From NCBI GenBank assembly GCA_902373635.1, contig CABKMV010000007.1:2020-66019 (forward strand): a DNA stretch of 64,000 nucleotides. Direction: 5' to 3'. This DNA comes from an uncultured Oscillospiraceae bacterium (lineage in GTDB: Bacteria; Bacillota; Clostridia; Oscillospirales; Oscillospiraceae). The position numbers were made by a program, and so were the translations under genes. The notes beneath the pieces were generated by a model. That model had not been told where the DNA came from and did no database searches. It saw only the letters and a list, made by a program, of their open reading frames with translations. Of this stretch, positions 21,999-54,128 are shown piece by piece. Position 1 is the first letter of the stretch. The number at the start of each line of letters is the position of its first letter.

Positions 21999-22997
21999 CT
22001 ATCCATGGCAGAGGATATCCAGAAGCGTGCCGCTGTCCAGCCCTGTGAAATACAGCCCCGCGTCCACCCCCTCCAGGGCGGTGCGGTAATCCTCCTCCAC
22101 CGGGCGCAGGCCGACGAAGCGCCGGGCCAGCTCCTCCGGCTCCACGGTGCTGAAGAAATCGCCCCGGAACTGGAGCGACGTGATGCGGCCCTTGTCCGTC
22201 TGGATGTATGCCTCCACGGTCCCGCATCCCTCTACCCTGCGGCGGCGGAGGAGAGAGCAGGCGGGGGACGCGCCATAGTTCCACTCCCAGGTGTTGTACC
22301 GCTGGGCGCGCAGTTCCTCCACGGCGGCAATGTCCGCCTCTGTCAAAGTATACTCCTCCATGGGCTGGCCCTGGAACATGCTCTCCAGCAGCTTGGACTT
22401 GAACTCCTGCAGGGAGATATCCCTGGGCAGGTGGGGACGCACCGAGGTGACACGGCTCTTGACGGACTTGACGCCCTTGGCGGCGATCTTCTCCTTGTTC
22501 ACATTCAGGGCCTGCCCAACCACCGTCAGGTCGGAGTCGAACATGATGGTACCATGGTGCATGACCCGGCCCTCACGAATATACTGAGAGTTGCCTGAGA
22601 ACTTCTGGCCGTCGATGGTAATATCGTTGCGGCCGTTGACCTGTGCGTCCACCCCCAGGGCGCGGAGGGCGTCCGCCACCGGCTGGCAGAAGAGCTTCAT
22701 GTCCAGCTGCATCCCCTGGGAGGCATCTACAATATAGGTGAAATTCAGGTTTCCCATATCGTGGTAGACCGCGCCGCCGCCGGAGAGCCGACGCACCACC
22801 CGGATCCCCCGCTCCCGGACAAAGTCCTCGTTGATCTCAGCCAGGGTGTTCTGGTGCTTCCCAACGATGATGGCGTTGTCATTCTGCCACAGCAGGAAAT
22901 ACCCCCGGTCTCTGGGCATCTTGTCAAAGACATACTGCTCCAGCGCCAGATTAAAGGTGGGGTCGGTGGTGGATACGTCGATAAATGTCATTGGCAT
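21999..22997 (-). CDS. lplA: lipoate--protein ligase
   Basis: 332 aa. RR.SGGGAVYHD.GNLNF motif and LplA C-terminal domain. Confidence 0.88.
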   Translation of the reverse strand: MPMTFIDVSTTDPTFNLALEQYVFDKMPRDRGYFLLWQNDNAIIVGKHQNTLAEINEDFVRERGIRVVRRLSGGGAVYHDMGNLNFTYIVDASQGMQLDMKLFCQPVADALRALGVDAQVNGRNDITIDGQKFSGNSQYIREGRVMHHGTIMFDSDLTVVGQALNVNKEKIAAKGVKSVKSRVTSVRPHLPRDISLQEFKSKLLESMFQGQPMEEYTLTEADIAAVEELRAQRYNTWEWNYGASPACSLLRRRRVEGCGTVEAYIQTDKGRITSLQFRGDFFSTVEPEELARRFVGLRPVEEDYRTALEGVDAGLYFTGLDSGTLLDILCHG

Positions 22998-23012: not shown

Positions 23013-24404
23013 TCAGGCACGCTTGGAGGGCATAACATGGATCGCCTGGCCATGGGCGGACTCCACCGCCTCCGTCACCGCCTCCACAAAGGTGGGGTGG
23101 GGCCGCAGGGCGGAGAGAAGCTGGCGGCTGGTGAGGCCGTTCACCACAGCGGTGGTCAGCTCGGCGATCATATCCGTGGCCCGGGGGCACATCATCTGGG
23201 CGCCCAGCAGCACGTCCGTCTCAGCGTGGAACACCAGCTTGATGAAGCTGCGCTCGGTGTGCTCCATCATGGTCTTGGCGTTGCCGCTCATGACGTATTT
23301 GCCGACAACTACGGGAATCCCCTTTTCCTTCGCCTCGTCCGCGGTGATACCGACACAGGCGATCTCCGGGTCAGTATAGACGCAGGAGGGCACCACATTG
23401 GGGTTGACGGAGGGCTCCGTCTTCCCGGCGATATGCTCCACGCAGGCGAGGGCCTGGACCTCGGCAGCGTGGGCCAGCTGCAGCCTGCCGTTGCAGTCCC
23501 CAATGGCGTAGATGCCGGGCACGCTGCTCTCGTACCAGTCGTTCACCTGGATAAAGCCGCGGACCATCTCCGGCGCGCAGCCCTCTTCAAAAACATTGGC
23601 CGTATTGGGCCGGCGGCCAACAGAGATCAGGATGCCGTCGCCATGGACAGCAGCCTCCCCCTTCTTCGTGGTAAAGGTGCAGGTGAGCCCGTCTTTCCCC
23701 CTGCTGATGCCGGAGACCATGGCGCCGGTATGGACCGCCACGCCCCGTTTCTTCAGGATCATAGCCAGATTCTGGCTGATCTCCCGGTCCATCATGGGCA
23801 GCAGCCGGTCCATGGCCTCCACAACGGTCACTTCACAGCCCAGGGCGGAGTAGACGCTGGCCATCTCCACGCCGATCACCCCGCCGCCGATGATGATCAG
23901 ACGCTGGTAGAAGCGGTTGAGCTCCTGGAGCAGCGCGTCGCTGGTGATGACGTCCTTGTCGTCCGCGCCGGGAATGGGAGGGATGCCGGGATAGGACCCG
24001 GTGGCCACCAGGATATTGTTTGCCTCCACCGTCTCCTCCCCCACCGTCACCTTCCCGGGGGCGGGCACCGAGGCCCGGCAGGGATAGACTGTAACGCCGT
24101 TGGCCTTCAGCAGCTGGGCAATGCCGCCGCGCAGCTTCTCAACCGTGTCCTGCTTGTAGTCGTGGATCTTCCCGTAGTCAAAGTTGGGGTTCTCCACAGT
24201 GATGCCCATGGCCCCCAGCTGCTCCAGCCGGCGGTAAGCGTCTGCGGCATGCATCAGCGCCTTGGTGGGAACGCAGCCCCGGTTCAGGCAGGTGCCGCCC
24301 AGGTCGCGCTCCTCCGCCAGAGCCACCGTCAACCCCAGCTGAGCGGCCTTGATGGCCCCCACATAGCCCGCAGGGCCGCCGCCAATGATAAAAATATCGT
24401 ACAT
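23013..24404 (-). CDS. lpdA: dihydrolipoyl dehydrogenase (glycine cleavage L protein)
   Basis: 463 aa. GGGPAGY FAD motif, redox-active GGTCLNRGCVPTK, and a C-terminal dimerisation/HPT motif. Confidence 0.9.
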   Translation of the reverse strand: MYDIFIIGGGPAGYVGAIKAAQLGLTVALAEERDLGGTCLNRGCVPTKALMHAADAYRRLEQLGAMGITVENPNFDYGKIHDYKQDTVEKLRGGIAQLLKANGVTVYPCRASVPAPGKVTVGEETVEANNILVATGSYPGIPPIPGADDKDVITSDALLQELNRFYQRLIIIGGGVIGVEMASVYSALGCEVTVVEAMDRLLPMMDREISQNLAMILKKRGVAVHTGAMVSGISRGKDGLTCTFTTKKGEAAVHGDGILISVGRRPNTANVFEEGCAPEMVRGFIQVNDWYESSVPGIYAIGDCNGRLQLAHAAEVQALACVEHIAGKTEPSVNPNVVPSCVYTDPEIACVGITADEAKEKGIPVVVGKYVMSGNAKTMMEHTERSFIKLVFHAETDVLLGAQMMCPRATDMIAELTTAVVNGLTSRQLLSALRPHPTFVEAVTEAVESAHGQAIHVMPSKRA

Positions 24405-24537: not shown

Positions 24538-25938
24538 TCAGAAGCTGTAACGCAGCACAGGGTTCCGGGCGGCCCGTACCTCGTCGGGACGGCCGATCTG
24601 GGCGTTATGCGGCGCGTTGTGCATGAACTCGGGGTCCTTGTGGGCCAGCTCGTAGAGCTGGCGGTACACATCGGCGGCCCAGTCCAGGGTCTCCTTGCTC
24701 TCCGTCTCGGTGGGCTCCAGCATCAGGGCCTCGTGGACGATGAGGGGGAAGTACATTGTGGGCGGATGCATGCCGTAGTCGATGAGGGATTTGGCCACAT
24801 CCAGAGCAGACACGCCTGTCTCCTTCTTGAACTCGGCCAGATCCAGCACGAACTCGTGCATGCAGATGCGGTCAAAAGCGGGCTGGAAGGTACCCTTGAT
24901 CTTGGACTGGAGGTAATTTGCGTTGAGCACCGCATTTTGCGCGGCCTCGGGGATGCCCTCCCGGCCCAATGTCATGATGTACGTCAGGGCCCGCACTACC
25001 ACCAGGAAGTTGCCCGCGAAGGAGCGGACCTGGATATGGCCCTCGCCGTCCATCGAAGCGGACTTGGGCAGGAACTTGGCCAAGAAGTCCTTGCAGCCCA
25101 CCGCGCCAGCGCCGGGGCCGCCGCCGCCGTGGGGCGTGGCGAAGGTCTTGTGCAGGTTGGAGTGGATGCAGTCAAAGCCCATGTCGCCGGGGCGGACCAC
25201 GCCCATGACGGCGTTCAGGTTGGCGCCGTCGTAGTAGCACAGGCCGCCGGCCTCGTGGACCAGGCGCGTGATCTCCAGGATGTTCTCATCGAAGATACCC
25301 ACGGTGTTGGGGTTGGTCAGCATCAATCCCGCGGTATCCTCGCCCAGGACGGCCTTCAGGGCCTCCAGATCCACGCAGCCGTTGGGAGCGGAGGCGATGT
25401 TCACCACATCGTAGCCGCACATAGCGGCGGTGGCGGGGTTGGTGCCGTGGGCAGAGTCGGGGACGATGATCTTGGTGCGCTTCTTATCGCCGCGGGAATC
25501 GTGGTACTGCTTGATGAGCAGCACGCCGGTGAACTCGCCGTGGGCGCCGGCAGCGGGCTGGAAGGTGCAGTCGTCCATGCCGAAGATCTCGCACAGATAC
25601 TTTTTAGCGGTATCCAGGACCTCCTGGCAGCCCTCGGTGGTATGGGCTGGGGCCAGGGGGTGAACGCCGGTGAAACCGGGCAGCGCGGCCATCTCCTCGT
25701 CGATACGGGGATTATATTTCATGGTGCAGGAGCCCAGGGGGTAGAAGCCGCAGTTGACGCCGTGGACGTGCTGGTTGAGCTCGGTGTAATGGCGGGAGAC
25801 ATCCGTCTCGCTCATCTCCGGCAAGCGGGGCGCCGTCTCACGCTCCAGGCCGGCGGGCATGGCGACCTGCTCCACATCACAGGCGGGCAGCAGGCTGAGG
25901 CCCCGGCCGGGTACGCTCTTCTCAAAAATCAGTTTCAT
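24538..25938 (-). CDS. gcvPB: glycine dehydrogenase (aminomethyl-transferring) subunit 2
   Basis: 466 aa from MKLIFEKS. The PLP site region is NLHKTF. Its ATG overlaps the gcvPA TGA (ATGA). Confidence 0.92.
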   Translation of the reverse strand: MKLIFEKSVPGRGLSLLPACDVEQVAMPAGLERETAPRLPEMSETDVSRHYTELNQHVHGVNCGFYPLGSCTMKYNPRIDEEMAALPGFTGVHPLAPAHTTEGCQEVLDTAKKYLCEIFGMDDCTFQPAAGAHGEFTGVLLIKQYHDSRGDKKRTKIIVPDSAHGTNPATAAMCGYDVVNIASAPNGCVDLEALKAVLGEDTAGLMLTNPNTVGIFDENILEITRLVHEAGGLCYYDGANLNAVMGVVRPGDMGFDCIHSNLHKTFATPHGGGGPGAGAVGCKDFLAKFLPKSASMDGEGHIQVRSFAGNFLVVVRALTYIMTLGREGIPEAAQNAVLNANYLQSKIKGTFQPAFDRICMHEFVLDLAEFKKETGVSALDVAKSLIDYGMHPPTMYFPLIVHEALMLEPTETESKETLDWAADVYRQLYELAHKDPEFMHNAPHNAQIGRPDEVRAARNPVLRYSF

Positions 25939-27251
25939 CCGGCGCACACCTCCTTCACAATGGCGACGGCCCTGTCCAGGGCCTCCTTGGTCGCCTTCTC
26001 CGTGGCGCACCACAGCACGCCGCCCTCAACAGGCAGGCCGCCCAGGATATCGGCCTCCTCCAGCGCCTTGAGCGCCTCATTGGCCTTTGGCATCTCTGCG
26101 ACAAACTCGTCAAAATACTCTCCCGCGTACTTCAGAGACACGCCGGGGATCTTGCACAGCTCACGGGCCAGGTAGTGGGCCTTGGCCATGGACTGGCGGG
26201 CCGCCTCGGCCATGCCGCTGGGGCCCATCGTGGCCATGTACAGACCGGCGGTCAGGGCGCAGAGGGCCTGGTTGGAGCAGATGTTGCTGCTGGCCTTCTC
26301 CCGGCGGATGTGCTGCTCGCGGGCCTGGAGGGAGAGGACGAAGGCGCGCTCGCCCTTGCAGTCCACTGTCTCTCCCACGATGCGGCCGGGCAGCTTGCGC
26401 ATGTGCTTGGTGGTGGTAGCCATAAAGCCCAGGTAGGGGCCGCCATAGCTGATGGGCATGCCCAACGGCTGGCCCTCCCCCACCGCCACGTCGGCGCCGC
26501 AGTCTCTGGGCGTCTTCATGATAGCCAGGGCGATAGGATTGCAGCCCATGATGTACATAGCGCCGGCGGCGTGGACCGCCTCGCCGATGAGCTCCACATC
26601 CTCAAAGAGGCCGTTGAAGTTGGGCTGCTGGACATAGAAGGAGGCCACGTCGGCGGTGAGCATCTCCCTGAGCGCATCCAGATCCGTCTTGCCGTCCTTG
26701 GCGGGGACAAGGCGCATCTCATCCCCGGTGCCATAACAGTAGGTGCGGATGGTGTTGATGGTATCAGGGTGGGCGGCGGCGGAGACAAGCGTCACCCTCC
26801 GCTTCCGGTCCCGGCACATGGCGGCCGCCTCAGCCGCGGCAGTGGCCCCGTCATAGACGGAGGCATTGGAGACGTCCATGCCGGTCAGCTCGCAGATCAT
26901 GGTCTGGTATTCAAAGATAGACTGGAGAACGCCCTGGCTCATCTCCGCCTGATAGGGGGTGTAGGCGGTCAGGAACTCCTCCTTGGCGGGGATATACTTG
27001 ACGATACTGGGGATGTAGTGGTCATAGGCGCCGGCGCCGCGCAGCACGGTGGAGAACACCTTGTTCTTCGCTGCCATGGCGGAGACAGCACGGCTGACCT
27101 CCAGCTCGCTCATCCCGGCGGGAATATCCAGCGGGCGATCCAGGATCATGCTCTCAGGCACATCCCGGTACAGCTCCTTGTAGTCGCTGAGCCCGATGGC
27201 CTCCAGCATTTCCCGCCGCTGGGCCGGGGTGGAAGGCACATAGCTTCCCAT
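25935..27251 (-). CDS. gcvPA: glycine dehydrogenase (aminomethyl-transferring) subunit 1
   Basis: 438 aa from MGSYVPSTPAQRREMLEAIGL. GAGGAGGG SD. Starts 1 nt after the gcvH stop. Confidence 0.92.
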   Translation of the reverse strand: MGSYVPSTPAQRREMLEAIGLSDYKELYRDVPESMILDRPLDIPAGMSELEVSRAVSAMAAKNKVFSTVLRGAGAYDHYIPSIVKYIPAKEEFLTAYTPYQAEMSQGVLQSIFEYQTMICELTGMDVSNASVYDGATAAAEAAAMCRDRKRRVTLVSAAAHPDTINTIRTYCYGTGDEMRLVPAKDGKTDLDALREMLTADVASFYVQQPNFNGLFEDVELIGEAVHAAGAMYIMGCNPIALAIMKTPRDCGADVAVGEGQPLGMPISYGGPYLGFMATTTKHMRKLPGRIVGETVDCKGERAFVLSLQAREQHIRREKASSNICSNQALCALTAGLYMATMGPSGMAEAARQSMAKAHYLARELCKIPGVSLKYAGEYFDEFVAEMPKANEALKALEEADILGGLPVEGGVLWCATEKATKEALDRAVAIVKEVCAG

Positions 27252-27252
27252 A

Positions 27253-27630
27253 TCAGCCCTCCTCAGCGCAGAAAGCCTCGTAGGCGGCCGCCTCCAGCAG
27301 CTCCTCCTGATCCGTGATATTCTCCACCTTGATGATCCAGGAGCCATAGGGATCGCTGTTCAGATTCTCGGGGGAGTCAGCCAGGTCCTCGTTGACCGCG
27401 CAGATGGTGCCGGAGACAGGGCAGACCAGATCGGAAACCGCCTTGACGGACTCCACATCGCCAAAGGCCTCGCCGGCGGCAACGCTGTCGCCCTCCTGGG
27501 GCAGATTGATGAACACTACATCGCCAAGGGAGTCCTGGGCATAGTCAGAGATGCCGATCACGGCGATGTCGCCCTCCATCTTGACCCACTCATGGGACTT
27601 GGAATACTTCAACTCAGCAGGATGATTCAT
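27253..27630 (-). CDS. gcvH: glycine cleavage system H protein
   Basis: 125 aa. YSKSHEWV and lipoyl-lysine context ESVKAVSD. Confidence 0.92.
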   Translation of the reverse strand: MNHPAELKYSKSHEWVKMEGDIAVIGISDYAQDSLGDVVFINLPQEGDSVAAGEAFGDVESVKAVSDLVCPVSGTICAVNEDLADSPENLNSDPYGSWIIKVENITDQEELLEAAAYEAFCAEEG

Positions 27631-27718: not shown

Positions 27719-30373
27719 TCAAAGGCCGGTAGCCTTGCAGAAGTGCTCCATGGCGCCGTCCAGCTCCTTGTCGGAGAAGCAGTACTTCATCTCAGTGTAG
27801 CCGCTGCGGAACTTTATAACCTCGTCCTTCACGTCCACGCCCTTGACGCACTCGGCGATCAGGTGGGCCAGGCGCTTGAACTCCTCCTTGCCGAAGCCGA
27901 AGCGGGTCATCTCGTTGACGCCCATACGCAGCGCGCCGGAGGCGGTGAAGCCCTCCTCCTCGGGAGTCGCCTGATAGTTGACGATGATGTTGTTGCGCTC
28001 CAGACGTTCAGCAATCTCGGGGCCCTTGCTGTAGCCGACCTTGACGATGACCTGATGGGTCTCGGTGTAGCTGATGGCGGGATCGCCGGCCACGTCCATG
28101 CCCTCGTCGGCCAGGCACTTGGCGAAGTACTTGGCGTTGGCCACCACGTTCTTCTGGTACTCGTCCTTGAAGGCGTTCATCTCATAGGCGCTCATCAGCT
28201 CGCCCAGCAGGGTGCCCAGGTGGTGGTTGGAGACGCTGCCCGGGAAAATACGGGTCTGCATGGTCTCCCACAGGCCCCACTTCAGATCCTCGGGCTTGTA
28301 GCTGACGCCGATGACGCCGCGCTGGGGACCGAAGAAGGTCTTGTGGGTGGAGCCGGTGACGATCTCAGCGCCCTCCTCGAAGGGCTTCTGGAAGTAGTCG
28401 CCGATCAGGCCCAGGACGTGAGCCATATCGTACATGATGGTGGTGTTGATGCCCTGCTCGTCAACGAACTTGCGGATCTCGGCCACAGGTTCCTTGTGCA
28501 GCACCATGGACTTACCAAAGATGATGAACTCGGGCTTATAGCGCTCCAGCAGCACCTTGGTGGCTTCCACGTCGATCTTGTAGGGGTTGTCGGGCAGGAC
28601 GGGGAAGTTGACCACCATCTGCTTCTCGGTGACGGGGTCCACAGCCACATAGTCGTGGAGGGCGCCCATGGGCTGGGCGGACAGGTGGCCGCCGCGGACG
28701 ATGTGGTTATTCATGATCCAGCCAAGGCGCTGGGGCTGACGCTTGCGGTCCACGCGGTTTTTGAAGTCCATCAGCGCGGAGAACACGGCGGTGTTGGACA
28801 TCTGGCCGGAGGTGCCGCGGGTCTCCACCTGGGCCGCGCCCAGGAACTTGCGCATCTCCTTGGTCAGCAGGTCCTCCACGGCGACGATGAACTTGGTGCC
28901 CTGATAGTAGGGGATGTCCGCGTCGTCAAATGCCTTCTGCTTCTTGTGCTCGGCGTAGCGGCCGGCGGGATCGGAGGCGGAGAGCAGCCGGGTGGCCCGG
29001 GAGGGGGTCATCTCGGAGGGGATCAGGTTGATGCACAGGTTCTGACGCCACTCATGGTTCTCCAGCGCCTTGGTCAAGAGCTCCGCGGCCTGGGCGGCGT
29101 AGTCTGTGACCTGACTGGGGCCGTCGGTGGTGCTCTTCTTGTAGATGATGGGACGGGCATAGGGAGGCGCGTCGCCGCGCATGTGGCAGGCAGTGACCAC
29201 GGCGGGCAGGCGCTTGCCGCGGATATCCACCTCGATCTCAAACTCTGTGACCACATGGGACTTCATGTAGGCCATACCGATGGAGCGCTTGGCGGTCTTT
29301 TCAGTGATGACGGTCTCAATGCCGGTCCCCTCGGTGACATAGTAGGGGATCATGGTGCCGCTGGTGACATAGCCCAGCTCCTCGCCGGTACGGGCGTCAT
29401 AGACGGGGCAGCCGGCGCGGAGAACACCCTTGCCCAGCAGGCAGATGGGCTGGATGCGGTAAGGCAGGTCCTCGTTGGAGGAGTAGTCGCGGTTGAGGAT
29501 CTTCTTCAGGGCCTCAAACTGCTTGCGCAGAGCGGCCTTGCCCACGAAATCGCCCTTCTCCTCGGCGAAGGAGACGGCGAACTTGGCCAGAGGAACGGAG
29601 TAGATGGGAATCTCGCCGCCCAGCTTGCACTCGCCCATCTCATGGCCGTACAGGGGCAGAGCGGCCTCCAGGCGGAGGGTATCGCGGGCCCCTAGTCCGG
29701 TGGGCTTGGCGCCCAGCTCGATCAGGCGGTTCCAGAAGTATGTAGCGTCCTCGCTGTCGCAGTACAGCTCAAAGCCAATGGGCTCGCCGGTGTAGCCGGT
29801 CTTGGCCACGCGGACGGGCTTGCCGTCCATGACGGTGGTATTCAGAGCGTTCTTGACGTTCTCGACAGTCAGCTCCTTGCCGCCGTGCATGGCCTTGAGG
29901 ATGTCCTTGGACTTGGGGCCCTGGACCGCGATGGCCGCGTACTTGTCGGAGACGTTGGTGATCTTGACGTCGAACTTTTCGGCCTCCTTGTACAGGTGGG
30001 CCAGATCCTTGTCGATGTTGCCGGCGTTGACCACCAGCAGATACTTGCTCTCCTCAAAGCGATAGAGGTAGACGTCGTCGATGGCATAGCCGTTCTCATC
30101 GGGCATGATGGCGTACTGGGACTGGTTCAGATCCAGCGCCAGAACGTTGCTGGAGATCACGTGCTGCAGGAACTTGACCATGTCCGGACCCTCGATGTCC
30201 AGGCGGCCCATATGGGACACGTCAAAAATACCGCAGTTGCTGCGGCAGTACAGGTGCTCCGCCACAATGCCGGTGGGGTACTGGACGGGCATCTCCCATC
30301 CGCCAAAATCCACCAGGGTGGCGCCTGCCTCCACATGGGCGTCATAGAGCTGGGTGCGCTTAAGTTCACTCAT
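27719..30373 (-). CDS. gcvT: aminomethyltransferase (GcvT) fused to a divergent serine hydroxymethyltransferase-like PLP domain
   Basis: Uninterrupted 884-aa ORF. The N-terminal ~410 aa are GcvT (LVDFGGWEMPVQY, GIFDVSHMG). The C-terminal ~450 aa are SHMT-like (INLIPSEMTPS, MYDMAHVLGLIG, GSTHKTFFGPQRG). AAGGAGG SD. Confidence 0.85.
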   Translation of the reverse strand: MSELKRTQLYDAHVEAGATLVDFGGWEMPVQYPTGIVAEHLYCRSNCGIFDVSHMGRLDIEGPDMVKFLQHVISSNVLALDLNQSQYAIMPDENGYAIDDVYLYRFEESKYLLVVNAGNIDKDLAHLYKEAEKFDVKITNVSDKYAAIAVQGPKSKDILKAMHGGKELTVENVKNALNTTVMDGKPVRVAKTGYTGEPIGFELYCDSEDATYFWNRLIELGAKPTGLGARDTLRLEAALPLYGHEMGECKLGGEIPIYSVPLAKFAVSFAEEKGDFVGKAALRKQFEALKKILNRDYSSNEDLPYRIQPICLLGKGVLRAGCPVYDARTGEELGYVTSGTMIPYYVTEGTGIETVITEKTAKRSIGMAYMKSHVVTEFEIEVDIRGKRLPAVVTACHMRGDAPPYARPIIYKKSTTDGPSQVTDYAAQAAELLTKALENHEWRQNLCINLIPSEMTPSRATRLLSASDPAGRYAEHKKQKAFDDADIPYYQGTKFIVAVEDLLTKEMRKFLGAAQVETRGTSGQMSNTAVFSALMDFKNRVDRKRQPQRLGWIMNNHIVRGGHLSAQPMGALHDYVAVDPVTEKQMVVNFPVLPDNPYKIDVEATKVLLERYKPEFIIFGKSMVLHKEPVAEIRKFVDEQGINTTIMYDMAHVLGLIGDYFQKPFEEGAEIVTGSTHKTFFGPQRGVIGVSYKPEDLKWGLWETMQTRIFPGSVSNHHLGTLLGELMSAYEMNAFKDEYQKNVVANAKYFAKCLADEGMDVAGDPAISYTETHQVIVKVGYSKGPEIAERLERNNIIVNYQATPEEEGFTASGALRMGVNEMTRFGFGKEEFKRLAHLIAECVKGVDVKDEVIKFRSGYTEMKYCFSDKELDGAMEHFCKATGL

Positions 30374-30435: not shown

Positions 30436-30476
30436 AAAGAAAAAGACACAAAATTTCCCTAAGAAAACTTTGTGCC
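30436..30476 (-). terminator. riboswitch expression-platform terminator
   Basis: Minus strand CACAAAGTTTTC-TTAGG-GAAATTTTGTG followed by TCTTTTTCTTT. The 5' arm overlaps the aptamer-2 closing stem. Confidence 0.75.
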
Positions 30477-30655
30477 TCTGTTTGCGCACCTGAGAGATTC
30501 CCCGCCCCGGCATCAATGACTGTACCGCGCAGGTTGCACCTTCGGCGTGCGGCGTTCACCGCACTCTACAGAGTATTGTCATGGCCCGGCCCTTTTGCCT
30601 GAGAGTTTTCGCATTCCCCTTCGGCGCCATTTCCGGTCTTCTGGTCTCTCCCGGG
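30476..30655 (-). promoter_or_regulatory. tandem glycine riboswitch (two aptamers)
   Basis: Minus-strand aptamer 1: GGGAGAGACC...GGCGCCGAAGGGGAA...CTCTCAGGCAAAAGGGCC. Aptamer 2: CTCTGTAGAG...CGCCGAAGGTGCAA...TCTCTCAGGTGCGCAAACAGAG. Both match the glycine riboswitch core and lie directly upstream of gcvT. Confidence 0.9.
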
Positions 30656-30851
30656 CCAATCATCCAATTCAGTATCACATATAACAAATACCAATATAAC
30701 AAATCAGTATTTTATATGGGTCAATGTTACCATGGGGTTTCTCGCCTTGTCAAGGAAAATTTCTCATTTATTCATAATTTTGCTTATTTATCTAAATCGA
30801 TTCGGAAAAATTTTGGTGATTCCGACAAAATACCTCCCGGTTTTACGGCTC

Positions 30852-52459: not shown

Positions 52460-52585
52460 CCGGTGAAGCGCTCAGGATCTGTACAGAGACCGTGCGCAGA
52501 GGAAGCTCTGGAGAAACTCATTTATGAGTGCCGAAGGTGCAAGGCCGTAAGACCGAATCTCTCAGGCAAAAAGACAGAGAACGCG
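52460..52585 (+). promoter_or_regulatory. glycine riboswitch, single complete aptamer (core 52506-52579)
   Basis: CTCTGGAGAA...GTGCCGAAGGTGCAAGG...AATCTCTCAGGCAAAAAGACAGAG. The upstream segment has only a partial CUCAGG-like remnant. Confidence 0.85.
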
Positions 52586-52684
52586 GTATGGTATGTGAAG
52601 CTGGGCATGCCCAGCTTCTCGTTCCCCCGGGGGAACGACACCCTTTGGGAGAAGGGGGGGATTTTCGCCCTCTTTTGCCCTGTG

Positions 52685-52739: not shown

Positions 52740-54128
52740 ATGCTCGAAATCGTACAAAAAATCAATGGGTACCTGTCTGACTATATCCTGGTCGTCCTGC
52801 TGATCGCCGTGGGGCTCTGGTACTCCATCAAGACCCGCTTTGTGCAGATCCGCTGCTTCGGCGAGGGGATGCGCAAGGTCTTTGGCAACCTGTCCCTGCG
52901 GGGCGGGAAGCAGGAGAGCGGCATGAGTTCCTTCCAGGCCCTTGCCACCGCCATTGCGGCCCAGGTGGGCACCGGCAATATCGTTGGCGCCTCCGGCGCC
53001 ATCCTCGTCGGCGGCCCCGGCGCTATCTTCTGGATGTGGGTGATCGCCTTCTTCGGAATGGCCACCATCTACGCTGAGGCCACCCTGGCCCAGAAGACCC
53101 GGGTCAAGGACGAGGACGGCCATATCCACGGCGGCCCCGTCTATTACATCACCACCGCCTTCAAGGGCGGCTTCGGCAAGTTCCTGGCCGGGTTCTTCGC
53201 CATCGCCATCATCCTGGCCCTGGGCTTCTTCGGCTGCATGGTCCAGTCCAACTCCATCGGCTCCACCTTCGAGACGGCCTTCGGCGTCCCCTCCTGGATC
53301 GTAGGCATCGTGCTGGTGCTGATCTGCGGCTTCATCTTCCTGGGCGGCGTGCAGCGCCTGGCCTCCGTCACGGAGAAGGTCGTCCCCATCATGGCGGCGC
53401 TGTTCCTGCTGGGCGGCCTGATCGTCCTCATTATCCGCATCAAGTACATCCCCGCCACCATCGCCATGATCTTCAAGTATGCCTTCAACCCCAGCGCCAT
53501 CATCGGCGGCGGCGTTGGCTACGCACTGAAGACCGCCCTGAGCCAGGGCGCCAAGCGCGGCCTGTTCTCCAATGAGGCCGGCATGGGCTCCACGCCTCAC
53601 GCCCACGCTCTCGCCAATGTGGCCGAGCCCCATGACCAGGGCTGCGTCGCCATGATCGGCGTGTTCATCGACACCTTCGTCGTCCTCACCCTGAACTCTC
53701 TGGTCATCATCTCCACCCTGTATACCGCCGACGGCCCTCTCGCCAACGGCTATACCGGCGCTGTCACAGAAACCATCAACAAGACCAATTTGGCCCAGAC
53801 CGCTTTTGGCGCTGTCTTCGGAGAGAGTGCCGGCGCCATGTTCGTGGCCATCGCCCTGTTCTTCTTCGCCTTCTCCACGATCCTGGGCTGGAACCTGTTC
53901 GGTAAGATCAACGCCTCCTGGCTCTTTGGCAAGAAGAGCACGATCATCTACAATATCATCGCCCTGGTGTTCGTCTTCCTGGGCACGCTGGCCTCCAATG
54001 ATCTGGTCTGGGAGCTCAGCGACATGTTCAACCAGCTGATGGTCATCCCCAACGCCATCGCCCTCTTTGCCCTGACCGGCCTGGTCCTCTCCATGACCAA
54101 GGGGATCGGTACCAAGGCCAAAAAGTAG
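52740..54128 (+). CDS. alanine/glycine:cation symporter (AGCS family), paralog 2
   Basis: 462 aa. GTGNIVGASGAILVGGPGAIFWMW and GLFSNEAGMGSTPHAHA motifs. Preceded by a glycine riboswitch. Confidence 0.88.
   Translation: MLEIVQKINGYLSDYILVVLLIAVGLWYSIKTRFVQIRCFGEGMRKVFGNLSLRGGKQESGMSSFQALATAIAAQVGTGNIVGASGAILVGGPGAIFWMWVIAFFGMATIYAEATLAQKTRVKDEDGHIHGGPVYYITTAFKGGFGKFLAGFFAIAIILALGFFGCMVQSNSIGSTFETAFGVPSWIVGIVLVLICGFIFLGGVQRLASVTEKVVPIMAALFLLGGLIVLIIRIKYIPATIAMIFKYAFNPSAIIGGGVGYALKTALSQGAKRGLFSNEAGMGSTPHAHALANVAEPHDQGCVAMIGVFIDTFVVLTLNSLVIISTLYTADGPLANGYTGAVTETINKTNLAQTAFGAVFGESAGAMFVAIALFFFAFSTILGWNLFGKINASWLFGKKSTIIYNIIALVFVFLGTLASNDLVWELSDMFNQLMVIPNAIALFALTGLVLSMTKGIGTKAKK

What the first reader, a model, noticed from the sequence alone, without database searches (positions are those of the whole stretch)
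27719..30373. Single-polypeptide fusion of GcvT with a divergent SHMT-like PLP domain
Seen in the sequence:
- The 884-aa ORF has no stop or frame change between its two halves.
- Residues 1 to ~410 are a normal aminomethyltransferase (LVDFGGWEMPVQY, GIFDVSHMG, C-terminal barrel).
- After a short polar linker (KKSTTDGPSQV, around nt 29050-29130), the remaining ~450 aa follow the serine hydroxymethyltransferase layout. INLIPSEMTPS corresponds to LIASEN(F/Y).S, MYDMAHVLGLIG to DMAH.AGL, and GSTHKTFFGPQRG to TTTHKTL.GPRG with the PLP lysine.
- Classical SHMT substrate and folate motifs are altered: SEMT replaces SENF/Y, and there is no GYPGKRYYGG.

Inference:
- T-protein releases 5,10-methylene-THF, which is exactly the SHMT co-substrate. 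A covalent fusion could therefore channel the C1 unit (2 Gly to Ser + CO2 + NH3, or the reverse reductive-glycine direction).
- The divergent active-site motifs leave open a different aldol or C1 reaction.
- I know of no biochemical characterisation of this architecture, but I cannot query databases here.
Basis: partly seen in the sequence, partly recalled or inferred. Interest (0 to 1): 0.7.

Follow-up and report, generated by a model that had tools for sequence, protein, structure and literature searches.

The report
Fused glycine-cleavage T-protein and SHMT
One gene encodes the glycine-cleavage T-protein joined to a serine hydroxymethyltransferase at the head of a glycine-sensing operon; this fusion is real, widespread and apparently unstudied, and most likely turns two glycines into one serine by making and using the folate-bound one-carbon unit on one protein.

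Summary
An 884-aa ORF lies at 27719-30373 on the minus strand, with Pfam domains GCV_T, GCV_T_C and SHMT and no stop or frameshift. It is not an assembly artefact. The same architecture occurs in at least 587 stretches of species-representative genomes, including complete genomes of cultured bacteria, and in Woesearchaeota archaea. Databases name it only "GcvT".

The C-terminal half belongs to the Methanocaldococcus jannaschii-like SHMT branch. It is also more conserved than the T-protein half in 78 of 80 loci.

The gene heads an operon (gcvH, gcvPA, gcvPB, lpd, lplA) behind a tandem glycine riboswitch. A riboswitch precedes the fusion or its operon in 62 of 80 related loci, and serine dehydratase genes are linked in six.

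Best reading: a glycine-induced bifunctional enzyme giving 2 Gly -> Ser + CO2 + NH3 + NADH, with tetrahydrofolate recycled locally. Channeling itself is inferred, not shown. Eight literature searches found no description of the fusion.

Verdict: an uncharacterised new variant of known enzymes, of moderate interest.

The parts
30724..30753 (-). Promoter-like site (TTGACA, 18 nt spacer, TAACAT, with TG extension) upstream of the riboswitch
   Evidence: Consensus scan, 10 of 12 matches. Pattern match only.
30512..30667 (-). Glycine riboswitch with tandem aptamers (first aptamer 30577-30663)
   Evidence: Rfam RF00504 scores 59.2 bits against a gathering score of 32. A two-aptamer alignment over 30512-30667 to clan member RF03166 scores 60.8 bits, E=2.5e-12, which is below that family's own gathering score.
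30442..30479 (-). Terminator-like hairpin followed by a T-rich tail, the likely expression platform of the riboswitch. A ribosome-binding site (AAGGAGG) and the ATG at 30373 follow.
   Evidence: Terminator scan: 17-pair stem then TTCTTTG. Sequence read. Its role as an anti-terminated ON switch is inferred.
27719..30373 (-). gcvT-shmt fusion gene, 884 aa
   Evidence: ORF; Pfam GCV_T + GCV_T_C + SHMT; full-length relatives in more than 80 genomes.
29141..30373 (-). T-protein (aminomethyltransferase) half, residues 1-411
   Evidence: NCBIfam GcvT equivalog TIGR00528 scores 267.1 against a cut-off of 235.85, and PRK00389 scores 339.1 against 300. Matches 1yx2, 1woo and 3a8i at E=1e-50 to 3e-64, with the motifs FDVSHMG, IDD, VVNAGN, TGYTGE and GLGARDTLRLEA conserved.
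29078..29140 (-). Inter-domain linker, residues 412 to about 432 (KKSTTDGPSQV...)
   Evidence: Together with the C-terminal tail, the least conserved stretch among close relatives: top-residue frequency is 0.62 for residues 396-432, against 0.74-0.88 in the two enzyme domains and 0.60 for the tail 841-884. Residues 402-404 and 415-422 have pLDDT below 50 and the model shows coil until helix 425 (the model is low-confidence overall).
27722..29077 (-). SHMT half, residues 433-884, of the M. jannaschii-like branch
   Evidence: Pfam SHMT E=2e-36. Best solved match is 4uqv/4bhd at 168.8 bits, against 85.4 bits for E. coli 1dfo. The catalytic residues are mapped.
28340..28342 (-). Codon of K678, the predicted PLP Schiff-base lysine (E. 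coli K229)
   Evidence: Alignment to E. coli GlyA and to 4uqv. Invariant in 26 of 26 close relatives.
27253..27630 (-). gcvH (H-protein)
   Evidence: TIGR00527 scores 150.3 against a cut-off of 115.85.
25935..27251 (-). gcvPA (P-protein subunit 1). The start was chosen at MGSYVPS and overlaps the gcvH stop codon.
   Evidence: NF001696 scores 566.9 against a cut-off of 364. The start codon is inferred.
24538..25938 (-). gcvPB (P-protein subunit 2). The start at MKLIFEKS overlaps the gcvPA stop codon in an ATGA arrangement.
   Evidence: NF003346 scores 678 against a cut-off of 441. The start codon is inferred.
23013..24404 (-). lpd (dihydrolipoyl dehydrogenase, L-protein)
   Evidence: TIGR01350 scores 482.9 against a cut-off of 408.8.
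21999..22997 (-). lplA (lipoate-protein ligase, which lipoylates the H-protein)
   Evidence: TIGR00545 scores 399.4 against a cut-off of 280.

Best explanation
The gene encodes a genuine bifunctional enzyme. The N-terminal half is a glycine-cleavage T-protein (aminomethyltransferase). A short variable linker joins it to a catalytically complete, PLP-dependent serine hydroxymethyltransferase of the M. jannaschii-like branch.

It is the first gene of a glycine-riboswitch-controlled operon that also supplies the H, P (two subunits) and L proteins and the lipoate ligase.

Proposed mechanism:
1. When glycine is abundant, the riboswitch lets the operon be transcribed.
2. The P and H proteins decarboxylate one glycine.
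3. The T half transfers the aminomethyl group to tetrahydrofolate, releasing NH3 and forming 5,10-methylene-THF.
4. The SHMT half uses that methylene-THF with a second glycine to make serine and regenerates THF on the spot.

Net reaction: 2 Gly + NAD+ -> Ser + CO2 + NH4+ + NADH. Serine can then go to pyruvate via serine dehydratase.

Shown here: domain identities, retention of catalytic residues, conservation of the fusion, operon and riboswitch linkage.
Inferred: enzymatic activities, THF as the cofactor, direction of flux, and any kinetic channeling.
For: - Domains and thresholds.
- T half versus solved T-proteins.
- SHMT half is closest to solved M. jannaschii SHMT: E=2e-48.
- Catalytic residues kept in the window protein and in fusions down to 31% identity: S453, Y473, E475, Y489, Y490, S522, G523, H563, S622, D649, H652, H677, K678 and R816, equivalent to E. 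coli S35, Y55, E57, Y64, Y65, S97, G98, H126, S175, D200, H203, H228, K229 and R363.
- The SHMT half is under stronger constraint than the T half: mean identity 70.9% against 61.9%, higher in 78 of 80 loci.
- The fusion is conserved: at least 120 clusters at 67-99% identity; fusions of 873-961 aa down to 31% identity, all GCV_T + SHMT; at least 587 stretches in species-representative genomes.
- Operon: GcvH, GcvPA, GcvPB, Lpd and LplA are all above curated cut-offs. gcv genes are adjacent in 58 of 80 loci, and in 43 of the 49 loci with at least 3 kb of flank on both sides.
- Glycine riboswitch in the window and on the same strand in 62 of 80 loci. In 49 of these it lies less than 450 nt upstream of the fusion, even where the fusion is a lone gene, as in L076 and L048.
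- Serine dehydratase lies immediately upstream of the fusion in L071 and at the end of the riboswitch-gcv operon in L062. It is also nearby in L064, L061, L069 and L026.
- Logic of the fusion: only in the Gly -> Ser direction is the product of one half the substrate of the other.
- Methylene-THF released by the glycine cleavage system decomposes to formaldehyde in vitro (PMC7227101), which would give a selective reason to capture it.
Against: - No enzymology exists for any member, as far as eight literature searches show.
- The SHMT half scores below NCBIfam's SHMT cut-off (246 against 335).
- Some residues that I recall as contacting folate in E. coli GlyA differ (N347->Q, R235->Q, R372->F), so cofactor binding could differ.
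- The closest characterised relative, M. jannaschii SHMT, uses tetrahydromethanopterin (PMC3697235).
- Both reactions are reversible, so the riboswitch and the operon are also compatible with serine -> glycine -> C1 flux.
- About a dozen loci have no gcvH or gcvP within 10 kb.
- One fusion lineage (P0132) has lost the PLP lysine, so catalysis by the SHMT half is not obligatory for keeping the fusion.
- The AF2 model was too poor in the SHMT half to examine domain geometry.
Confidence: 0.65

Rival explanations
1. Same bifunctional enzyme, but the physiological flux runs the other way. Serine is split by the SHMT half into glycine plus methylene-THF. The glycine is then cleaved by the P, H and T proteins into a second methylene-THF, feeding the C1 pool or the Wood-Ljungdahl methyl branch. 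The fusion would then co-localise two THF-consuming steps rather than hand over an intermediate.
For: Both reactions are reversible (established biochemistry). The fusion occurs in acetogens and C1 specialists: Acetobacterium carbinolicum, Sporomusa malonica, Clostridium thailandense and Ca. Formimonas warabiya. In the closest relative, L077, a MetV/MetF methylene-THF reductase pair sits between the riboswitch and the fusion, which suggests that methylene-THF also leaves the system.
Against: In this direction the two halves share no intermediate, since glycine goes to the P-protein and not to the T half, so the fusion has no obvious benefit. A glycine-sensing ON switch suits glycine disposal. 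Serine dehydratase genes in the same operons (L062, L071) would already dispose of serine directly.
Confidence: 0.18
2. The fusion works in the reductive (glycine synthase / reductive glycine pathway) direction for C1 assimilation. Methylene-THF + CO2 + NH3 gives glycine, and glycine plus a second methylene-THF gives serine.
For: The fusion is present in acetogens and in a dichloromethane fermenter. Reductive glycine routes are proposed for related anaerobes (PMC10327494).
Against: In this direction both halves compete for methylene-THF rather than pass it on. Control by a glycine-activated riboswitch in 62 of 80 loci is the signature of glycine catabolism or detoxification. Most hosts are gut Oscillospiraceae, and the loci show no sign of autotrophy.
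Confidence: 0.07
3. The C-terminal half is not a working THF-dependent SHMT. Either it catalyses another PLP aldol or transaldol reaction, such as threonine or beta-hydroxy amino acid cleavage that supplies glycine, or it serves mainly as a dimerisation scaffold for the T-protein.
For: It scores below the NCBIfam SHMT cut-off. There are weak partial matches to a threonine transaldolase structure (7k34) and to the fluorothreonine transaldolase model. N37->M and other changes occur near the substrate and folate sites. The P0132 lineage keeps the fusion without the PLP lysine.
Against: All core SHMT catalytic residues are conserved across the family, including E57 and Y64/Y65, which in my recollection are tied to the folate-dependent reaction. 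The half is more conserved than the T half. The transaldolase model score is far below its cut-off (128 against 650). A glycine-producing role fits poorly with glycine-induced expression.
Confidence: 0.08
4. The single ORF is an assembly or sequencing artefact that joins two adjacent genes.
For: None found. Only the a priori possibility in a draft or metagenome sequence.
Against: The same continuous protein is found in at least 120 clusters and in 80 independent loci, including complete genomes of cultured strains. The linker varies but is always in frame.
Confidence: 0.01

Closest known systems
[quoted passage not shown]
   Same: The N-terminal 411 residues pass the curated GcvT equivalog threshold. 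They share the conserved motifs and sit in an operon with gcvH, gcvPA, gcvPB and lpd behind a glycine riboswitch.
   Different: Canonical T-proteins are stand-alone proteins of about 360-400 aa. This one has roughly 45 extra residues within the domain and carries a 450-aa SHMT on its C-terminus.
Methanocaldococcus jannaschii serine hydroxymethyltransferase (PDB 4UQV/4BHD)
   Same: Best solved match, at 168.8 bits. It shares the branch signatures GSTHKTFFGPQ.G and FPG.VSNHHL, RYAE...YQG, and a C-terminal extension that ends in an (H/K)Y(S/C)F motif.
   Different: That enzyme is stand-alone and uses tetrahydromethanopterin (PMC3697235). This one is fused to a folate-binding T-protein in folate-using bacteria, has a 7-residue insertion between the Y55/E57 and Y64/Y65 equivalents, and has Met in place of the SEN asparagine.
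Bacterial housekeeping GlyA (E. coli SHMT, PDB 1DFO)
   Same: Same fold family and catalytic residue set.
   Different: Only 27% identical, and the fusion half scores below the NCBIfam SHMT cut-off. A canonical glyA (58% identical to E. coli GlyA) coexists next to the fusion in L022, so the fused SHMT is an additional, dedicated copy in at least that genome.
Plant mitochondrial glycine decarboxylase + SHMT coupling in photorespiration
   Same: Same net chemistry (2 Gly -> Ser + CO2 + NH3 + NADH) with methylene-THF as the shared intermediate (established biochemistry).
   Different: In plants the enzymes are separate proteins. Here the producer and the consumer of methylene-THF are covalently joined.
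Other fusions involving folate enzymes: DHFR-TS of protozoa, and the GcvT-like folate domains of sarcosine oxidase alpha subunit and dimethylglycine dehydrogenase
   Same: Consecutive steps that share a folate or a C1 intermediate are placed on one polypeptide. The GCV_T domain is a recurrent fusion partner: weak SoxA and TMAO-demethylase matches are seen.
   Different: In those enzymes the GCV_T-like domain receives a C1 unit from an upstream oxidase or demethylase. Here the T-domain is the producer and is fused to a downstream consumer. The mechanistic comparison rests on my own knowledge and was not tested here.

Membership tests
GcvT aminomethyltransferase (TIGR00528 / PRK00389; Pfam GCV_T + GCV_T_C) | Score above the curated family cut-offs | tested here: met
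   TIGR00528 scores 267.1 against 235.85, and PRK00389 scores 339.1 against 300. Pfam GCV_T scores 263.5 and GCV_T_C 34.1, both above their gathering scores.
GcvT aminomethyltransferase (TIGR00528 / PRK00389; Pfam GCV_T + GCV_T_C) | Conserved T-protein motifs, including the IDD aspartates and GLGARDTLRLEA | tested here: met
   Residue-level alignments to 1yx2, 1woo, 1vlo and 3a8i. D99, D100, N116, E197, R230 and R234 are invariant in 26 relatives.
GcvT aminomethyltransferase (TIGR00528 / PRK00389; Pfam GCV_T + GCV_T_C) | Genomic association with the H, P and L proteins | tested here: met
   gcvH, gcvPA, gcvPB, lpd and lplA lie directly downstream. The association is conserved in 58 of 80 loci.
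GcvT aminomethyltransferase (TIGR00528 / PRK00389; Pfam GCV_T + GCV_T_C) | THF-dependent aminomethyl transfer from the H-protein | not testable with these tools
   Needs an enzyme assay.
Serine hydroxymethyltransferase (Pfam PF00464; NCBIfam NF000586) | Pfam gathering threshold | tested here: met
   125.8 bits against 27, covering profile positions 8-399 of 399.
Serine hydroxymethyltransferase (Pfam PF00464; NCBIfam NF000586) | NCBIfam SHMT naming cut-off | tested here: not met
   246.2 bits against a cut-off of 335. The stand-alone members of the same sub-branch, P0129 and P0134, also fail, while ordinary M. jannaschii-like SHMTs pass.
Serine hydroxymethyltransferase (Pfam PF00464; NCBIfam NF000586) | PLP Schiff-base lysine in the T-H-K-T motif, the Asp that binds pyridine N1, and the stacking His | tested here: met
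   K678, D649 and H563 align to E. coli K229, D200 and H126. They are conserved in 12 of the 13 fusion sequences aligned (the window protein, P0001 and 11 representatives); the exception is P0132.
Serine hydroxymethyltransferase (Pfam PF00464; NCBIfam NF000586) | Substrate and catalytic residues S35, Y55, E57, Y65, H203, H228 and R363 | tested here: met
   S453, Y473, E475, Y490, H652, H677 and R816.
Serine hydroxymethyltransferase (Pfam PF00464; NCBIfam NF000586) | Canonical folate-contacting residues of bacterial SHMT | tested here: inconclusive
   Y64, L127 and F257 are kept. N347->Q, R235->Q, L121->I and G262/G263->S/N are changed. R235->Q and G262/G263->S/N are shared with M. jannaschii-like SHMTs, whereas N347 is Gln in the fusion sub-branch but mostly Asn in the ordinary M. 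jannaschii-like SHMTs. The alignment around N347 is uncertain.
Serine hydroxymethyltransferase (Pfam PF00464; NCBIfam NF000586) | THF-dependent Ser <-> Gly activity and an obligate dimer | not testable with these tools
   Needs biochemistry. The AF2 monomer model was low-confidence in this half.
M. jannaschii-like ('archaeal-type') SHMT branch | Closer to 4UQV than to bacterial or eukaryotic SHMTs, with shared branch motifs | tested here: met
   168.8 bits against 85.4 bits for 1dfo. A rough neighbour-joining tree puts all fusion C-domains in one clade inside this radiation. The branch is not exclusively archaeal: P0161, for example, is from Ca. Schekmanbacteria.
M. jannaschii-like ('archaeal-type') SHMT branch | Use of tetrahydromethanopterin | not testable with these tools
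   Unlikely in these hosts. The fused T-domain is a folate-binding domain, and L077 has a THF-type MTHFR in the same operon. This is inference only.
Glycine-riboswitch-controlled gcv operon | Glycine aptamer above the Rfam gathering score, upstream and on the same strand | tested here: met
   RF00504 scores 59.2 against 32 at 30577-30663(-). The tandem arrangement spans 30512-30667, and a terminator-like hairpin lies at 30479-30442. 62 of 80 related loci have one.
Threonine / fluorothreonine transaldolase (TIGR04506) | Curated cut-off | tested here: not met
   128.3 bits against 650, and only a partial match.

The most novel reading that the evidence does not exclude
The fusion creates a self-contained 'glycine-to-serine synthase'. 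Tetrahydrofolate would behave as a captive shuttle between the T-protein cavity and the SHMT site of a dimeric complex. Methylene-THF would then never equilibrate with the cell's C1 pool, no formaldehyde would leak, and the pathway would run at very low folate levels. That would be a natural example of true folate channeling between the glycine cleavage system and SHMT, conserved from gut Clostridia to DPANN archaea, and directly usable to improve synthetic reductive-glycine or photorespiratory-bypass designs.
Probability: 0.2. Interest if true: 0.7.

Novelty: new variant of a known kind. Interest (0 to 1): 0.55.

Why it matters
The glycine cleavage system and SHMT are the two hub reactions of one-carbon metabolism. 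Whether their shared intermediate is handed over or freely diffuses has long been discussed for photorespiring mitochondria, and it now matters for engineered reductive-glycine pathways. Methylene-THF released by the cleavage system decays to toxic formaldehyde (PMC7227101).

A natural covalent fusion offers a ready test case and a possible engineering part. It is conserved in hundreds of species, including abundant gut Oscillospiraceae, several cultured anaerobes and some archaea.

It also matters for annotation. These genes are named only 'GcvT', so metabolic reconstructions miss an SHMT activity. They may wrongly score genomes as lacking glyA, or overlook a glycine -> serine -> pyruvate fermentation route in gut anaerobes.

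Tried and rejected
1. **Plus-strand reading.** Translating 27719-30373 on the + strand gives no such protein. The gene is on the minus strand.

2. **Structure route.** I did not run a fold search on it and drew no conclusion about domain geometry. Only the linker's low confidence is mentioned, and only as weak support.

3. **Second SHMT in the same genome.** tblastn with E. coli GlyA finds no other SHMT in the 64-kb window. The rest of the genome is not available, so coexistence could be shown only in a relative, L022.

4. **Literature.** Eight full-text searches and the candidate papers read gave no description of a natural GcvT-SHMT fusion. This is absence in the held library, not proof of absence.

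5. **Different-chemistry idea.** The transaldolase or aldolase reading was considered and downgraded.

6. **Loci without gcvH or gcvP.** Context was inspected in Sporomusa, Formimonas, C. thailandense and Desulforhopalus. No alternative conserved partner emerged. Formimonas and Mogibacterium still have the glycine riboswitch, and Desulforhopalus has serine dehydratase.

7. **MetV/MetF linkage.** It was found only in L077 and is not general.


Full report
**1. Observation**

An 884-codon ORF (ATG to stop) spans 27719-30373, on the minus strand. The plus-strand translation of the same interval is meaningless.

Pfam finds GCV_T (residues 9-248, E=2e-78), GCV_T_C (360-394) and SHMT (433-839, E=2e-36, nearly the whole profile). 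NCBIfam places the N-terminal half above the curated GcvT cut-offs: TIGR00528 scores 267 against 236, and PRK00389 scores 339 against 300. The C-terminal half falls below the SHMT cut-off, at 246 against 335.

**2. Not an artefact, and not rare**

- A search of 5.8 billion clustered proteins returned at least 120 clusters of 878-888 aa with the same three domains, at 67-99% identity. Where they are named, the name is only 'glycine cleavage system aminomethyltransferase GcvT'.
- An exhaustive HMMER search with the C-terminal domain alone found fusion-length proteins (873-961 aa) down to 31% identity. Pfam finds GCV_T in all ten that were scanned and SHMT in nine; the tenth, P0195, matches the window's SHMT domain directly at E=8e-47.
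The 80 loci kept are full-length or cut only by contig ends.
- The closest is Faecousia sp. (92%), so the window is probably from an Oscillospiraceae gut bacterium.
- Cultured hosts include Acetobacterium carbinolicum, Sporomusa malonica, Clostridium thailandense, Ca. Formimonas warabiya and Desulforhopalus singaporensis.
- Other record labels include Caldilineaceae, Spirochaetales, Thermoleophilia, Syntrophaceae and Pseudomonadota. The most distant fusions are from Ca. Woesearchaeota archaea.

**3. The SHMT half**

My recalled E. coli GlyA sequence is identical to PDB 1dfo, so it was used for numbering. The C-terminal half is 27% identical to it. It matches M. jannaschii SHMT (4uqv/4bhd) much better, at 168.8 against 85.4 bits, and shares GSTHKTFFGPQ.G, FPG.VSNHHL and RYAE...YQG.

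In a multiple alignment the following are conserved in the window protein and in fusions across the whole family (E. coli numbering): the Schiff-base lysine (K678 = K229), D200, H126, H203, H228, S35, Y55, E57, Y64/Y65, S97/G98, S175 and R363. 'SEM' instead of 'SEN' is one of several variants (N, M, Q, S) at that position in the sub-branch.

Some positions that I recall as contacting folate differ (N347->Q, R235->Q, R372->F). R235->Q is shared with M. jannaschii-like SHMTs, whereas Gln at the N347 position is typical of the fusion sub-branch.

A rough neighbour-joining tree puts all fusion C-domains in one clade within this branch, with a few stand-alone proteins nested inside it. The branch also has bacterial members.

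The SHMT half is more conserved than the T half in 78 of 80 loci, at a mean of 70.9% against 61.9%. That argues for a selected function. One lineage (P0132) has lost K229, E57, H126 and H203, and that gene sits alone outside any gcv operon.

**4. The T half**

It aligns with solved T-proteins at E=1e-50 to 3e-64, with the FDVSHMG, IDD, VVNAGN, TGYTGE and GLGARDTLRLEA motifs intact. These residues are invariant among 26 close relatives.

**5. Context in the window**

Downstream on the same strand, partly with overlapping stop and start codons, lie gcvH, gcvPA, gcvPB, lpd and lplA. All are above the curated NCBIfam cut-offs.

Upstream lie, in order:
- a promoter-like site (30753-30724);
- a glycine riboswitch (RF00504, 59 bits; tandem aptamers at 30667-30512);
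- a terminator-like hairpin (30479-30442);
- a Shine-Dalgarno sequence and the ATG.

**6. Context elsewhere**

- gcvH, gcvPA or gcvPB are adjacent in 58 of 80 loci, and in 43 of the 49 loci with at least 3 kb of flank on both sides.
- A covariance model built from six glycine aptamers found a same-strand riboswitch in 62 of 80 loci. In 49 it lies less than 450 nt upstream of the fusion, and in 10 it lies upstream of a gcvH- or gcvP-first operon that contains the fusion.
- This includes loci where the fusion is a lone gene: Formimonas L076 and Mogibacterium L048.
- Serine dehydratase lies immediately upstream of the fusion in Desulforhopalus (L071). It closes a riboswitch-fusion-gcvH-PA-PB-lplA-lpd-sda operon in L062, and it is nearby in four more loci.
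- A canonical glyA (58% identical to E. coli GlyA) sits beside the fusion in L022. Extra stand-alone gcvT genes precede it in L002 and L007.

**7. Mechanism**

Shown: domain identity, an intact catalytic set, conservation of the fusion, and linkage to the operon and to glycine sensing.

Inferred: when glycine is high the operon is transcribed. P and H decarboxylate glycine. The T half makes 5,10-methylene-THF and NH3. The SHMT half condenses that C1 unit with a second glycine to give serine and regenerates THF locally. Serine dehydratase then yields pyruvate. The fusion makes mechanistic sense only in this direction, because only then is the product of one half the substrate of the other.

Capture of methylene-THF would also limit its known decay to formaldehyde (PMC7227101). 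THF, rather than methanopterin, is inferred from the hosts, from the folate-type T-domain, and from a THF-type MTHFR in the same operon in L077. The closest characterised relative uses H4MPT (PMC3697235), so this needs testing. True kinetic channeling is untested.

The AF2 model was too weak in the SHMT half to look at geometry. The linker region is, with the C-terminal tail, the least conserved part of the protein, and part of it has low model confidence, which is consistent with a flexible tether.

**8. Rivals**

- Reverse flux (serine and glycine oxidation to C1 units, for example in acetogens) is chemically possible and is my main alternative, at about 0.18.
- Reductive glycine assimilation (about 0.07) fits poorly with a glycine-ON riboswitch and with both halves competing for methylene-THF.
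- A non-SHMT or scaffold role (about 0.08) is disfavoured by the residue conservation, although the P0132 lineage shows it can happen.
- An artefact is excluded.

**9. Comparison and novelty**

Both halves are members of well-known families. The SHMT half belongs to the M. jannaschii-like branch but fails NCBI's naming threshold, which explains why the protein is annotated only as GcvT. The architecture is visible in public databases, but I found no paper that describes or characterises it in eight searches of the held library.

I rate it a new variant of a known kind. It is logical rather than astonishing. It is nevertheless widespread, consistently under-annotated, and directly relevant to the old question of coupling between the glycine cleavage system and SHMT, and to C1 pathway engineering. 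Interest: 0.55.

Noticed in passing
window 52498-52587 (+) and 52740-54128 (+): A second glycine riboswitch (RF00504, 58.8 bits) precedes a 462-aa AgcS-family amino acid carrier (TIGR00835, 429 bits). Glycine uptake and glycine cleavage therefore appear to be co-regulated by the same ligand.
   Followed up: partly
L082 3132-5801 and L083 760-3429 (protein P0132): An 889-aa GcvT-SHMT fusion whose SHMT half has lost the PLP lysine (K->H) and also E57, H126 and H203. It is a lone gene next to LpxK and glycosyltransferase-9 genes, so it may be a pseudo-enzyme version of the fusion.
   Followed up: partly
L077 8170-10000: In the closest relative (Faecousia sp., 92% identical fusion), a MetV-like gene (PF12225) and a MetF gene (MTHFR, PF02219) sit between the glycine riboswitch and the fusion. 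They are absent from the window and from the other 79 loci.
   Followed up: yes
L022, around 8230 (-): A canonical glyA (58% identical to E. coli GlyA, 449 bits) lies about 1.7 kb from the fusion on the opposite strand. The fused SHMT therefore coexists with a housekeeping SHMT in that genome.
   Followed up: partly
L002, around 8317 (+); L007, around 10001 (+): A second, stand-alone gcvT (59% identical to the T half) lies directly upstream of the fusion. In L007 the riboswitch precedes this extra copy.
   Followed up: no
L071 1429-2661; L062 18503-19708; also L064, L061, L069, L026: L-serine dehydratase genes (SDH_alpha + SDH_beta) are linked to the fusion. In L062 the gene closes a riboswitch-controlled operon that would take glycine all the way to pyruvate.
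   Followed up: yes
L081 5293-6750 (protein P0129): A stand-alone member of the fusion-type SHMT sub-branch (50% identical) lies in a cluster with NuoF-like and molybdopterin formate-dehydrogenase-like genes, an aminotransferase, a PALP enzyme, an NAD kinase and a GDC-P fragment.
   Followed up: no
L060 4747-9252 (Sporomusa malonica): Here the fusion has no gcvH or gcvP nearby and no glycine riboswitch. Upstream are an MttB-family methyltransferase, a hydantoinase-like gene, and a guanidine-I riboswitch followed by a PNPOx-like gene. Downstream is a B12-binding radical SAM gene.
   Followed up: partly
window 27743-29695 (+), and many others between 18000 and 40000: Very long ORFs (up to 650 aa) run antisense to real genes, as is usual at about 62% G+C. 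I take them to be shadow ORFs, but none was searched.
   Followed up: no
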